Virus genome (UHGV): UHGV-0119008
DNA: 12,477 bases
Strand: one strand, 5' to 3'
Source: a virus
The position numbers are program-made. Shown piece by piece: positions 9,001-12,000 of the stretch. Each line of letters begins with the position of its first letter. Within the stretch, counting starts at the first letter, position 1.

Positions 9001-12000
9001 GCTGAACTTGAAGCATACAAAGAAAACACGCCAGCGGCACTAAATGAGGCGTTTAAACACTGGAATTTAGCTGTGAATGCCTTTGAGCACCTCTCTAAGC
9101 GTGTAGAGATGCTCTGTAAGCGCGAAAACGCATACCTGACAGCCGATCAGGTATGGGAATTATCAAACTGGATAGAAGATATTGAATCTGATGTTCGCTA
9201 TGTGGGAGATGGACTTGTTGAACTAGCGCAACGCTTAGGCGCTACTATCACAGAAGAATAAAAAAAGCAACAAAAAAGTTGTAAAATATCTTGACATTCC
9301 ATCTATTGTATGTTAATATAATTATATAGGGGTGATTATTTTTCCTTTATTGGTTCGATATTAAAAATTCTTCCTGTCATTAAAGGGGAGTAAAATCTCC
9401 GCTCCCCGCTTCTTCTCCTCCTTAAGTAAATACTGTGCCATTATACCTCTTTGTTATGCATACATCTTGGAGTATGCATAACATAGGGTAATTACATAGG
9501 TATGAGTTAATAAAAGGCGGCTTTAAATGCTGCCTTTTATTTTGCCCGTTATACAACTTAAAAGTTGTATTTCTTACTTTAAACAAGGTAACAAGGTTTA
9601 TATAAATGTTGTTCTTAAATGATAAAGAGCAAATCATCAAGTATAAAGATGAAATGCTGAAAATTAATCCACAAATTACCGAAATGGTAGCTAAATACGC
9701 TGGGTGTTCTGTAGAGGAAGTAGAAAGATGTGTTGAAAAATATTTTTCTCCTTCTTCTCCGTCTACACCTTCCCTTAATGAATTAATCAAATTAAAAGCT
9801 AAGGAGATTACTAAATGATTATTGATTTAGACACTCTGTTTCCAGTTCGAAAGACTTTCACGGATATTGTAAGTTATTGTACTGATCCGTTTGCCTCTGT
9901 AGAAAGCAAGGTTTTTGCTTCTCTTCCTGCTGATGTTGAGTGCGGCGACTTGATCACCAGCACTGGCGCTAAATATGAATCAGGAGATGATATTTATGTT
10001 GTTATGAGTGAATTTGTAACGGCTGGAGAAAACAAGCCTGTAGATGTGCTACGTAGCAATGCTGGGCTTGTATGCATCAAAGCTGATGCGCTGAATGCTG
10101 TAAGTGAAGCAGCAAAAACAGCATTAATTAAAAAAGGCTTTCAGCTTGAAGGGTTCCATTCTGTTTTCACTTCTTAATAAAAGGAATAATAATAAATGAT
10201 TCTAGGTAATGATTACGTTGATTTAGCTCCTCTGTTCTCTGCGCATAGCACTAGAAATTATCTACTTTCTACTCTCGACTTCACTGATCCGGTGGGCGTT
10301 AGTTCTCATAAAGTAGCTGTTTCCCAGCTTGTCGAAAGCAACGAATCTCTCTTTAACAAAGAGACAAGCCGTTTTAGTTCTGAACACAATGTTACTAAGC
10401 GAGAACAAGGTAAAGAATGGCTGATCGAAATCCCTTACTTCCTGCGTGAAGATGTGATCCGTCCTTCTGATGTTCAAGGCAAGCGTAAGCCTGGCACTGA
10501 TTTTCAGGAAACACTCACTGATATTTATGCTGACTATGTTGCTAAACACCACGTAGCGTATCAGCGTACAAAAGAGAGCGTGCTGGCTGCATCTCTGTTT
10601 AGCGGTAAAACTTACACGCCTAAAACTGATGATGTTCTTATCGAGTGGAGCAAGCTGTTTAACGTATCAGCTATGAAAGCCACTGTGAACGCTTCCAGCA
10701 CTGACACCACGAAGATTTTTAAAGAATTTGATCAGATTGCTACTGACATTATCGAAAAAGCACAGAGTCAGGCGGCGGCTGTAGAGCGAATTGTTGTTTT
10801 CTGTAAGCCGGAAGCCTTCTCTGCAATTCGATTCTCTGCTGGTATGGCAAACGCATTCCAGTATGTAAGCCCACTGGAAGAGGGGAACGTTGTGTATCAG
10901 CGTCGTGACCTGCTGCCAGGGGTGACAGCGTTCACTATTCCAGGAACTAACATTGATGTTGTTAAACTGGTAGATCCGCTACACCTGGCACATATGGCCG
11001 CAGACGCTGTAGCTGTGCCTAAATTCTCTAAGGGTAGCGGAATTTATACCAACATCTACGGGGCTGCTTCCAGCACCTTTGAACTGATTAATGCCGCTCC
11101 TGCTGAGGTGTATAGCTATAGCTATGAATCTTCTCGTGGTGATGCTGTTAACGTTGTTACAGAGAATAGCCAGATGGTGGTAAACCACGGTGTAGGCTTC
11201 TCCGTTCAAATCACTGTTAAATAATATTTTAACGTGTAATAGAGGCGTGGCGTGAATAACACGCTTCGCCTTTTTTTATTTATTTTTAAATTTTGAGAGG
11301 TGATTAAAATATGGAAGTGATTTTGAAATCAAAAAATGGTGTACACGTACATTTAGATGCTAATGATTCTAGAGGCTTGTTAAATCTGAAATATCTATGT
11401 TCTCTCTTAGATGTTCCCTATGAAGGAGTAAAAGCCCGTATGTTCAGACTAAACGAGAGTATTGATCAGGCTCTACACCATTTCTTAAGCAAAGAAGGTG
11501 GTAAAAATGATTAATAAGGGGATTTTAAATGTTAGAAATTAACACTTCTAAAATTAAGAACACAGTTACATTTAGTGTAGATAAAGACAGCTTGAAAAAA
11601 GCGAAAGACTCTATTACAGGCTTAAAGGAATTCGCAGAGAACATTAAGCCAGCTAAATTAAGATTTGATACTGTCACTAAAGGCTATAAGAAAGCACAAA
11701 GTGAAGTAGACAAGATTGCCCAGCAAAAAGCGAAAAACGAAAAACAGAATCAAAGAGCACAAGCTGCCGCAGCAAGAGCACAGGCAAGGCAACAGCAACA
11801 AATAGCAGCACGTAAAGAGAAAGCAGAATTAAAACTCCTCGATGTGTCAAGCTCTATCAGTGCAATGCACCGTCTCTCTGTAGCTGAACAATACAAAGCT
11901 ATTGCACAGGCTAGAGAAATTGCCCTCCAATATGAAAGAGGCGCTATTAGTCTGGCACGTATGAATAGCCAGATGAAACGCTTACAACAGCAACAACGTA

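What the first reader, a model, noticed from the sequence alone, without database searches (positions are those of the whole stretch)
9291..9570. Lambda PR'-tR'-like arrangement: consensus promoter, ~200-nt structured non-coding leader, intrinsic terminator, then structural genes
A near-consensus sigma70 promoter (TTGACA-17-TAATAT) is followed by ~200 nt with no ORF, alternative hairpins and a polypyrimidine tract, then a terminator, an operator-like palindrome and the structural gene block. This mirrors the lambdoid late-operon design, where constitutive transcripts stop at tR' unless an antiterminator modifies RNA polymerase. No Q-like zinc-finger protein is evident upstream, so control could be RNA-based, depend on a helper phage, or act through a novel small protein such as the 112-aa ORF at 8923-9261.
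Basis: partly seen in the sequence, partly recalled or inferred. Interest (0 to 1): 0.55.

Follow-up and report, generated by a model that had tools for sequence, protein, structure and literature searches.

The report
Terminated leader RNA before capsid genes
A strong promoter that makes a roughly 215-base non-coding RNA and then stops at a terminator sits just ahead of the capsid genes of a widespread, uncharacterised phage-satellite-like island of E. coli and its relatives, and most likely acts as the gate that keeps those genes off until something lets RNA polymerase read through.

Summary
Window 9291-9319 holds a TTGACA-17-TGnTAATAT promoter. About 215 nt with no plausible ORF follow, then a canonical intrinsic terminator (9511-9543), a perfect 9+9 palindrome (9551-9570), and p70, p120 and an E-family major capsid gene.

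The unit belongs to an integrative, satellite-like island found in about 577 of 5,426 complete E. coli genomes and in other Enterobacterales. The order small helical protein, strong promoter, ORF-free RNA, terminator, p70-p120-capsid holds in every subfamily I fetched. The RNA is unalignable between subfamilies and ranges from about 215 to about 900 nt. Within the window's lineage, substitutions are rarer in the spacer (98.3% identity) than at third codon positions of flanking genes (83-95%). Sister-lineage leaders carry hairpins with clear compensatory changes. No Rfam family matches.

No sigma70-like promoter lies between terminator and capsid genes in any of 69 units. A second conserved terminator follows the capsid gene. 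The lambda PR'-tR' design logic is therefore supported, but Q, N/nut and RfaH/ops membership tests fail or are inconclusive. The antiterminating factor is unknown.

The main rival is a SviR-like trans-acting satellite sRNA.

The parts
8923..9261 (+). p112: a small all-helical protein gene immediately upstream of the promoter, in the position lambda Q occupies
   Evidence: Homologues lie directly upstream of the leader promoter in the window-type, 55% and 62-65% capsid groups. AlphaFold gives a three-helix bundle at pLDDT 89. No PDB fold match reaches E<=0.001. No Pfam or PHROG hit. A profile search finds 550 clusters, most of them from Klebsiella.
9268..9283 (.). Upstream operator-like dyad CAAC-AAAAAA-GTTGTA, centred about 52 bp before the predicted start
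   Evidence: Exact CAAC-N6-GTTG occurs only twice in the window, here and at 9554-9567. It appears as direct repeat D2 and inverted repeat I1 and is invariant or nearly so in 25 sequences. Sister lineages carry TAAC-N6-GTTA or TGAATA-type dyads in the same position.
9291..9319 (+). Sigma70 promoter: -35 TTGACA, 17-bp spacer, TG at 9311-9312, -10 TAATAT
   Evidence: Conserved.
9326..9543 (+). Predicted ORF-free transcript of about 215 nt; the start at 9326 is inferred from the -10, accurate to about 2 nt
   Evidence: No ORF. MFE z = -4.9. Substitution identity of 98.3% among 25 lineage members against 83-95% at third codon positions of neighbouring genes. No Rfam match at E<=1.
9385..9407 (+). 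Hairpin H1, GGGGAGU...GCUCCCC. The 5'-terminal GGGG (9329-9332) and an inner GGAG/CUCC pairing are possible competitors for the same C run.
   Evidence: -12.2 kcal/mol, z = -3.5. Invariant in 25 sequences.
9408..9426 (+). Polypyrimidine tract containing UCCUCCUUA (9416-9424), an anti-Shine-Dalgarno-like sequence
   Evidence: Read from the sequence. CTCCTCCTTAAG is invariant while the flanking bases carry indels. It is an exact complement of the p92 Shine-Dalgarno region at 8088-8096. A CCUCC motif sits in a hairpin loop in many sister leaders.
9447..9488 (+). Hairpin H2, with a 12-bp perfect stem at 9452-9463 / 9472-9483
   Evidence: -20 kcal/mol, z = -7.0. The only variable pair alternates U-A (13 sequences) and U-G (12 sequences), which keeps pairing only on the + strand RNA.
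9511..9543 (+). Intrinsic terminator t1
   Evidence: -17.4 kcal/mol, followed by a U run. A canonical terminator occurs 46-106 nt before p70 in 67 of 69 distinct units, with at least 8 unrelated stem sequences.
9551..9570 (.). Perfect 9+9 palindrome ATACAACTT-AA-AAGTTGTAT between terminator and p70; a likely protein operator
   Evidence: I10, 100% complementary. As RNA it folds at only -7.6 kcal/mol. Analogous dyads occur in the other lineages.
9606..9818 (+). p70, first gene of the structural block, with a possible helix-turn-helix
   Evidence: The p70-p120-capsid order is conserved in about 80 loci; alignment A8. The single-sequence model is low confidence, pLDDT 63.
9815..10177 (+). p120, in the position and of the size of a lambda gpD-like protein. 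That resemblance rests on gene order only.
   Evidence: No family hit.
10196..11224 (+). Major capsid protein, E family
   Evidence: Pfam PF03864 at 2.2e-14 and PHROG 29. Homologues are confined to Enterobacterales. The closest phage relative is only about 24% identical.
11236..11285 (+). Second intrinsic terminator t2, after the capsid gene and ahead of p67 and the tail-like genes
   Evidence: -20.2 kcal/mol plus a T run. A terminator of -8 kcal/mol or stronger occupies this position in 63 of 72 distinct loci.

Best explanation
The region is a self-contained sigma70 transcription unit. It sits at the junction between the regulatory/replication genes and the capsid module of an integrative, phage-satellite-like island. 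Intact islands are bounded by a tRNA gene on one side and a tyrosine integrase on the other, and run: DNA invertase, early genes, this unit, p70-p120-capsid-p67, a tape-measure-like gene and a Dit-like gene.

RNA polymerase starts near 9326 at a near-consensus, TG-extended promoter and transcribes about 215 nt of ORF-free, partly structured RNA. By default it stops at the intrinsic terminator at 9511-9543. The capsid genes have no recognisable promoter of their own, so they are expressed only when polymerase passes this terminator, and the second one after the capsid gene. I infer that this needs a termination-resistant polymerase, produced by a factor made by the island's early genes or by an infecting helper phage that acts at the promoter or on the leader RNA. 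This is the lambda PR'-6S RNA-tR' logic without a Q homologue.

The operator-like dyads before the -35 and after the terminator probably add a DNA-binding layer of control. The terminated RNA may also act in trans, as StxS does.

Shown: the anatomy, its conservation, purifying selection on the spacer, RNA-level structure on the + strand in sister lineages, and the absence of a downstream sigma70 promoter. Inferred: the start site, actual termination, read-through and the identity of the factor.
For: The promoter, ORF-free stretch, terminator and palindrome are present as described.

The island is widespread: matches in 577 of 5,426 complete E. coli genomes, with this spacer present at 90-95% identity in 307. 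Intact copies are flanked by a tRNA gene and an integrase.

The order p112-family gene, strong promoter, ORF-free spacer, terminator, p70-p120-capsid holds in all five subfamilies, whose capsid proteins are 55-97% identical. The spacer sequences themselves share only the promoter, the first bases of the RNA and the terminator zone. Terminators with at least 8 unrelated stems occupy the same place. Function is conserved without sequence conservation.

Within the window's lineage the spacer has 98.3% substitution identity, against 83-95% at third codon positions and 96.6-98.9% at first and second positions of flanking genes.

In the 62-65% group one hairpin has 12 of 17 pairs with changes on both sides. 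It is 95% paired, against 25-54% when partners are slid, with many G-U pairs. So the spacer is a structured RNA read from the + strand.

No sigma70-like site of 9/12 or better lies in the ~110 nt before p70 in any of 69 distinct units, whereas all units with a callable promoter score at least 10 at the leader start.

A second strong terminator follows the capsid gene in 63 of 72 loci.

The capsid gene is under purifying selection (96.6% identity at first and second positions, 83.3% at third), so it must be expressed at some time.
Against: No transcript data were available, so the start site, termination and read-through are all predictions.

No antiterminator was identified. p112 is a featureless three-helix bundle. 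No Q, N or RfaH-type signals are conserved. No alternative pairing involving the terminator arms was seen.

A promoter for a phage-encoded sigma factor or RNA polymerase, or an activator-dependent promoter, in the 61 bp between terminator and p70 cannot be excluded by a sigma70 scan.

Terminators after capsid genes are also common as simple attenuators.

The window-type alignment has no compensatory pair (0 of 47), so its own fold beyond three hairpins is unproven.

The anatomy equally fits a stand-alone sRNA gene such as SviR.
Confidence: 0.45

Rival explanations
1. It is a stand-alone, trans-acting satellite RNA gene. The unit exists to make the ~215-nt RNA (much larger in sister lineages), which base-pairs with or binds helper-phage or island targets, as SviR does in the Vibrio cholerae PLE. 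The capsid genes would be transcribed separately from an unrecognised helper-dependent promoter downstream of the terminator.
For: SviR is a ~210-nt RNA from an ORF-free intergenic region of a satellite. It has a single promoter, an intrinsic terminator and inverted repeats before the promoter and after the terminator, and it targets capsid-related and satellite transcripts (bioRxiv 10.1101/2022.04.08.487710).

This window has the same size and the same anatomy, including the dyads at 9268-9283 and 9551-9570.

The invariant UCCUCCUUA is single-stranded in predictions and complements Shine-Dalgarno regions, exactly so at p92. In L078 a 14-nt perfect match covers the Shine-Dalgarno sequence and AUG of the p92 homologue.

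The terminator hairpin with its U tail is typical of sRNA 3' ends. Purifying selection acts on the RNA body.
Against: Same-strand placement directly ahead of p70-p120-capsid is kept across all lineages, and no promoter is visible in between.

Sister RNAs of 550-900 nt with many hairpins are unlike base-pairing sRNAs.

Complementarity to p92 is not general. One of the two complementary segments is deleted in 7 of 25 lineage members.

Complementarity between the flanking repeats is not above shuffles: 34 of 200 shuffles reach it for the window.

No match to any phage record was found for 8800-10300.
Confidence: 0.27
2. It is a cis-acting RNA antiterminator of the HK022 put or EAR type. The leader RNA itself makes the polymerase that transcribed it termination-resistant. 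Transcripts from this promoter would then pass t1 and t2, while polymerases arriving from the early operon would stop at t1. Control would lie at initiation, through the operator-like dyads.
For: Large structured leaders with covarying stems and conserved loops lie at the 5' end of an operon containing internal terminators. No protein antiterminator was found. Operator-like dyads of lineage-specific sequence flank the unit, which suggests the promoter is not simply constitutive.
Against: The window-type RNA is short and shares no recognisable module with the large leaders beyond its two ends. No similarity to EAR or any Rfam family. A strong terminator placed right after a constitutive antiterminator RNA would serve only as an insulator.
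Confidence: 0.13
3. It is mainly a DNA-level element. The spacer would be a packaging (cos/pac) or regulatory-protein binding region next to a small helix-turn-helix protein gene, as cos sits before Nu1 in lambda. The promoter and terminator would be incidental: the terminator simply ends the early operon.
For: There is a perfect palindrome at 9551-9570. The iteron-like motif TTAYAYAGG occurs 7 times against 0.43 expected, including twice inside the unit.
Against: Compensatory changes with G-U pairs argue for RNA. The promoter is conserved in every lineage. There is no similarity to any of 50,697 phage records, as a hijacked cos or pac site would need. All 306 full-length E. coli matches are colinear, so it is not an invertible segment.
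Confidence: 0.08

Closest known systems
Lambdoid late control: PR' promoter, 6S RNA (about 194 nt), tR' terminator, Q antiterminator (established knowledge; summarised in PMC7547250)
   Same: A strong promoter gives a short ORF-free transcript of about 200 nt that ends at an intrinsic terminator just ahead of late or structural genes. A small regulator-candidate gene lies immediately upstream. Further terminators lie inside the downstream operon.
   Different: There is no Q homologue or zinc-finger protein; p112 is a three-helix bundle. No consistent -10-like pause element is present. The element is a ~12-kb satellite-like island, not a lambdoid phage. Capsid genes, not lysis genes, follow. 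The leaders of sister lineages are 350-900 nt and highly structured.
StxS, the sRNA derived from the terminated PR' transcript of Stx phages (PMC7547250)
   Same: It shows that a terminated late leader can also work as a trans-acting sRNA. The same dual role is possible here, through the CU-rich tract and the U-tailed terminator.
   Different: No sequence or Rfam relationship. Hfq binding, processing and targets are untested here.
SviR, the satellite-encoded sRNA of the Vibrio cholerae PLE (bioRxiv 10.1101/2022.04.08.487710)
   Same: It is encoded by a phage satellite in an ORF-free intergenic region. Its main species is about 210 nt, made from a single promoter and ended by an intrinsic terminator. 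Repeats lie upstream of the promoter and downstream of the terminator, and it is tied to capsid gene regulation.
   Different: The host and sequence are unrelated. The SviR promoter is induced by the helper phage, whereas this one is near-consensus sigma70. Here the unit directly precedes same-strand capsid genes that lack a promoter. The flanking-repeat complementarity is not statistically supported here.
HK022 put RNAs and other cis-acting antiterminator RNAs such as EAR (established knowledge)
   Same: A structured leader RNA lies upstream of terminators in a long operon, and no protein factor has been identified.
   Different: No sequence or structure similarity could be tested or shown. 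The window-type RNA has only three supported hairpins.
Satellite P4 CI RNA immunity (established knowledge)
   Same: A satellite uses a constitutively made, processed leader RNA and premature termination to keep genes off.
   Different: CI acts by pairing with repeated seqA and seqC sites on the same transcript. No such repeated complementary sites were found here, and there is no Rfam C4 hit.

Membership tests
Lambdoid Q / PR'-tR' late control | A Q-family antiterminator gene upstream of the promoter | tested here: not met
   None of the ten ORFs tested between 6998 and 11514, which include all six between the early promoter and the leader, gives a Pfam or PHROG antiterminator hit. p112 is modelled as a three-helix bundle and has no PDB fold match at E<=0.001.
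Lambdoid Q / PR'-tR' late control | A constitutive strong promoter followed by a short terminated transcript ahead of late genes | tested here: met
   Sequence level only. Transcription itself was not observed.
Lambdoid Q / PR'-tR' late control | A -10-like element in the initially transcribed region that causes a sigma70-dependent pause where Q loads | tested here: inconclusive
   GATTAT at 9334-9339 matches TATAAT at 4 of 6 positions, including A2 and T6, and is kept in the window type. No equivalent is consistently present in sister lineages.
Lambda N / nut antitermination | A boxA sequence plus a boxB hairpin in the leader | tested here: not met
   The window-type leaders have no boxA-like match. 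Sporadic matches in other groups lie inside stems or at an internal terminator.
RfaH / ops-dependent operons | The ops element GGCGGTAGnnTG in the leader | tested here: not met
   No match with up to 1 mismatch in any of 69 units.
Riboswitch or RAT-type attenuators | An alternative antiterminator pairing that overlaps a terminator arm | tested here: not met
   No complement to either terminator arm was found by inspecting the leader sequence. The 17 nt just before the terminator are absent in 10 of 25 lineage members. Terminator sequences differ between lineages without a matching upstream partner.
Any curated RNA family (Rfam 15) | A covariance-model match | tested here: not met
   Nothing at E<=1 overlaps the leader in the window or in sister loci L002, L003, L009, L053, L074 and L082.
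SviR-like satellite sRNA | A ~200-nt ORF-free satellite transcript with its own promoter and an intrinsic terminator | tested here: met
   Predicted anatomy only, compared.
SviR-like satellite sRNA | Flanking inverted repeats whose changes are compensated between the two sides | tested here: inconclusive
   The CAAC-N6-GTTG dyad occurs on both sides in the window, and TAAC-N6-GTTA on both sides in some sister loci. Repeat complementarity is not above shuffles.
SviR-like satellite sRNA | Base-pairing to helper and satellite mRNAs through seed regions | not testable with these tools
   The helper is unknown. Only a 9-nt anti-Shine-Dalgarno match to p92 was found.
Known phage satellite families (P4-like, PICI, cfPICI, PLE) | The hallmark gene sets: P4 primase, Sid, Psu and Delta; PICI AlpA, primase and TerS; cfPICI portal, protease and terminase | tested here: not met
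   The island encodes a tyrosine integrase, a DNA invertase, a Rep-like HTH protein, an E-family capsid protein, a tape-measure-like protein and a Dit-like protein, and no terminase, portal or protease. Literature searches found no description of it.

The most novel reading that the evidence does not exclude
The unit is the minimal member of a previously undescribed class of satellite leader RNAs. These range from about 215 nt here to 350-900 nt of multi-hairpin RNA with conserved loops in Klebsiella, Citrobacter, Enterobacter and other E. coli lineages. On this reading the RNA itself senses helper-phage infection, or a diversifying island protein such as p112, and converts RNA polymerase to a terminator-resistant form. 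Capsid and tail-gene expression would then be switched on by an RNA-centred antitermination mechanism unrelated to Q, N, put or RfaH.
Probability: 0.2. Interest if true: 0.85.

Novelty: new variant of a known kind. Interest (0 to 1): 0.6.

Why it matters
If the gate model holds, it shows how a very common but unstudied capsid-encoding island, present in about a tenth of complete E. coli genomes and many other Enterobacterales, keeps its structural genes silent and times them to a helper phage. It would do so by lambda-like logic but without any known antiterminator, which gives a tractable system for finding a new antitermination factor or RNA. The leaders of sister lineages are large, covarying, uncatalogued RNAs, so the locus also adds a new structured-RNA family linked to phage satellites. 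If the SviR-like reading holds instead, it would be the second example of a satellite sRNA and the first in enterobacteria.

Tried and rejected
- Rfam at E<=1 on the window and six sister loci: nothing overlaps the leaders.
- Small peptide in the leader: there is no + strand ORF of 20 aa or more. The 10-codon GTG frame at 9332 loses its start codon in L022 and L031.
- Invertible promoter switch driven by the island's DNA invertase: all 306 full-length E. coli matches are colinear, and both dyads have the same AA core orientation. Rejected.
- T4-type late promoter TATAAAT overlapping the p70 ATG: the motif is not enriched (5 found, 4.5 expected) and is absent in two subfamilies. Rejected.
- ops and boxA: absent or inconsistent.
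- Helper-like cos or pac site: 8800-10300 has no match in the phage collection. Phage matches to the window are confined to short stretches elsewhere, chiefly 7389-7783 in the Rep-like gene, and none lies in the leader.
- P4-like repeated complementary sites: only scattered 9-11-mers.
- A general leader-to-p92 pairing: not conserved.
- Flanking inverted repeats as in SviR: not above shuffles.
- RNAalifold on the 23-sequence, 908-column alignment of the 62-65% group: it returned almost no structure because of indels. Module-wise realignment was needed.
- p112 as a Q-like protein: generic three-helix bundle.
- p70 structure from a single sequence: pLDDT 63, too poor to search with. Its profile against PDB sequences was uninformative.
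- nhmmer with the window-type profile: homology to other groups is limited to the promoter, the 5' end and the terminator zone.
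Full report
**What is in the window**

The window is a mosaic bounded by IS2 ends. Its right half, from about 5200 to 12420, is the remnant of an island. Intact relatives of that island lie between a tRNA gene and a tyrosine integrase. The tRNA gene is tRNA-Gly near xdhABC, or tRNA-Thr near proA.

Intact copies are about 12 kb. In order they carry:
- a DNA invertase (Resolvase plus HTH);
- a 1.5-2 kb ORF-poor stretch with TTACACAGG iterons;
- a strong early promoter (window 6856);
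- small regulators and a Rep-like HTH protein;
- p92, p136 and p112;
- the unit under study;
- p70, p120, an E-family major capsid protein and p67;
- a 610-aa protein that matches a PHROG tape-measure family, and a Dit-like protein.

Terminase, portal and protease genes are absent. The closest capsid protein among 50,697 phage records is only about 24% identical. The element therefore looks like a phage satellite of a kind I could not find described. It matches 577 of 5,426 complete E. coli genomes. Its capsid protein family is confined to Enterobacterales.

**Checking the observation**

- The promoter is TTGACA, a 17-bp spacer and TAATAT, with a TG extension (9291-9319).
- From the inferred start near 9326 to the terminator there is no + strand ORF of 20 codons or more.
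- Two strong local hairpins are predicted: 9385-9407 at -12.2 kcal/mol, and 9447-9488 at -20 kcal/mol with z = -7.
- The terminator at 9511-9543 folds at -17.4 kcal/mol and is followed by U residues. It folds better on the + strand than on the - strand because of a G-U pair.
- The polypyrimidine tract lies at 9408-9426 and contains UCCUCCUUA.
- The palindrome at 9551-9570 is a perfect 9+9 dyad. Its core, CAAC-N6-GTTGTA, recurs just upstream of the -35.

Promoter-like hexamers are not enriched in the window as a whole. The case for function therefore rests on comparative evidence.

**Comparative evidence**

I collected 4 annotated E. coli loci, 8 loci from a species-representative genome set and 80 metagenome contigs. 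The capsid proteins fall into groups that are about 89-98%, 76%, 73%, 62-65% and 55% identical to the window's.

In every group the same order holds:
- a p112-family gene;
- within a few tens of bases, a TTGACA-like -35 and a TG-extended -10;
- an ORF-free spacer;
- a canonical intrinsic terminator 46-106 nt before p70;
- a dyad;
- p70-p120-capsid.

The distance from the -35 to p70 is about 315-335 nt in the window type, 440-490 nt in the 55% group, 560-750 nt in the 62-65% group, and about 880 and 1,000 nt in the two other E. coli groups.

A profile of the window type finds only the promoter, the first bases of the RNA (AUAGGG) and the terminator zone in the other groups. Terminator stems come in at least eight unrelated sequences. 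The function of each position is conserved while the sequence is replaced, which is hard to explain without selection for promoter, transcript and terminator.

**Selection and RNA structure**

Among 25 distinct window-type sequences the spacer shows 98.3% substitution identity. Third codon positions of p136, p112, p70, p120 and the capsid gene show 83-95%, and first and second positions show 96.6-98.9%. Variation in the spacer is concentrated in indels within the CU-rich linker and in a 17-nt indel just before the terminator.

This lineage is too uniform for covariation: 0 of 47 predicted pairs change on both sides. The one variable pair alternates U-A and U-G, which preserves pairing only in + strand RNA.

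The 62-65% group is diverse enough to test. Its leaders contain a series of hairpins with conserved loops (UUCCCAUAG, CCGUUAGG, A-UUCGAA-UC) and changing stems. For one hairpin, tested formally, 12 of 17 pairs have changes on both sides and 95% of cells pair. When partners are slid by 1 to 3 columns only 25-54% pair, and no shuffle reaches the observed covariation score.

These leaders are genuine structured RNAs. None matches Rfam. The window's version looks like a minimal form that keeps the 5' end, one G/C hairpin, the CCUCC tract, one long hairpin and the terminator.

**How it most likely works**

Three observations favour a gate.
- The capsid genes are under purifying selection and so must be expressed. 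Yet none of 69 distinct units has a sigma70-like site scoring 9 of 12 or better in the ~110 nt before p70, while every unit with a callable promoter scores at least 10 at the leader start.
- The leader unit is always on the same strand, immediately upstream.
- A second strong terminator follows the capsid gene in 63 of 72 loci, ahead of p67 and the tail-like genes. Complete expression of the module would therefore benefit from a processively termination-resistant polymerase.

This is the lambda PR'-tR' logic.

The specific lambda machinery is not there. There is no Q, N or RfaH-type protein or signal, no riboswitch-like alternative pairing, and only an inconsistent -10-like element after the start. 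The conserved upstream neighbour p112 is confidently modelled as a plain three-helix bundle (pLDDT 89) with no significant structural relative. Its family is large and very diversified in Klebsiella, which fits a protein engaged in conflict or recognition but proves nothing. The factor may equally be encoded by a helper phage. The only helper clue is that the 5' part of the Rep-like gene (7389-7783) is 90-96% identical at the DNA level to rV5-like phages.

**Rivals**

The most serious rival is that this is a stand-alone satellite sRNA gene. SviR of the Vibrio PLE is a ~210-nt RNA from an ORF-free intergenic region. It has one promoter, an intrinsic terminator and inverted repeats on both sides, and it regulates capsid-related and satellite mRNAs. 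The anatomy here is strikingly similar, and the invariant UCCUCCUUA could act as a seed against Shine-Dalgarno regions.

Several points count against this as the sole role:
- the strict cis arrangement;
- the lack of a downstream promoter;
- the 550-900-nt size of sister RNAs;
- the non-general target complementarity;
- flanking-repeat complementarity that is no better than chance.

The two roles are not exclusive, as StxS shows for Stx phages.

Two further readings are given lower weight. One is a put- or EAR-like self-acting antiterminator RNA, with control exerted at the operators. The other is a mainly DNA-level role in packaging or protein binding.

**Verdict**

I rate it a new variant of a known kind, with moderate to high interest because the RNA family and the island are uncatalogued and the question is directly testable.

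Noticed in passing
window 5200-6855, with motifs at 5249, 5282, 5600, 5633 and 5678: This ~1.65-kb ORF-poor stretch carries iteron-like TTACACAGG repeats, all on the + strand. The degenerate form TTAYAYAGG gives 7 hits against 0.43 expected, and two of those lie inside the leader unit (9322 at the predicted start, 9492 before the terminator). It may be an origin or a regulator-binding array. The degenerate pattern was defined after seeing the leader copies.
   Followed up: partly
window 6856-6884: This is the best sigma70-like promoter in the window: TTGACA-17-AATAAT with TG, 11/12. It heads the early operon (p62 to p112). Its start region TATTAGAGGG resembles that of the leader promoter (TATATAGGGG) and the iteron TTACACAGGGG, which hints at a shared regulator.
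   Followed up: no
window 11236-11285: A strong intrinsic terminator (-20 kcal/mol plus a T run) lies directly after the capsid gene. A terminator is conserved at this position in 63 of 72 distinct related loci, although the sequences differ. The weak Rfam caiA hit (27 bits, E = 0.5) is this hairpin.
   Followed up: yes
window 7389-7783: The 5' part of the 225-aa Rep-like HTH gene is 90-96% identical at the nucleotide level to hypothetical genes of rV5-like phages (Mt1B1_P17, BI-EHEC, muut). This points to recent exchange with that phage group and gives a possible clue to the helper.
   Followed up: partly
L002 6883-7760; L003, L004 and L006 (about 990 nt each); L008-L012 and L053-L078 (about 550-700 nt); L082-L091 (about 350-400 nt): Sister lineages carry much larger ORF-free leaders at the same position. 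They have many hairpins, conserved loops (UUCCCAUAG, CCGUUAGG, and the self-complementary UUCGAA) and clear compensatory changes. None has an Rfam match, so together they look like a new large structured RNA family.
   Followed up: partly
L001 6720-7259 and 7260-9197; the window equivalent is truncated: The island encodes a Hin/Gin-type DNA invertase next to the long ORF-free region. What it inverts is unknown. The leader unit is not inverted in any of the 306 full-length matches in E. coli genomes.
   Followed up: partly
L001 13728-16304; in the window only the start survives, after 11525: The structural block continues with a 610-aa protein that matches a PHROG tape-measure family and a 236-aa Dit-like distal tail protein. 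There is no terminase, portal, protease or tail tube gene, which is an unusual gene set for a satellite.
   Followed up: partly
window 8923-9261 and homologues: The p112 family has 550 clusters at E<=1e-3 and is extremely diversified in Klebsiella, at 25-33% identity to the window protein. That pattern suggests an arms-race or specificity determinant.
   Followed up: partly
window 1-56 and about 12420-12477; window 1-5100: The window is bounded by IS2 ends. Its left 5 kb is an unrelated mosaic of a PerC-family regulator, a pRiA4b ORF-3 family gene and IS3 remnants, with matches to enterobacterial plasmids. The island copy in this window is therefore a truncated remnant that lacks its integrase end.
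   Followed up: partly
L078, leader loop against the p92 homologue start: A 14-nt perfect complementarity (AUCAUAAUCCUCCU against AGGAGGAUUAUGAU) links the CCUCC hairpin loop of the leader to the Shine-Dalgarno sequence and AUG of the p92 homologue. It was not found in most other loci.
   Followed up: partly
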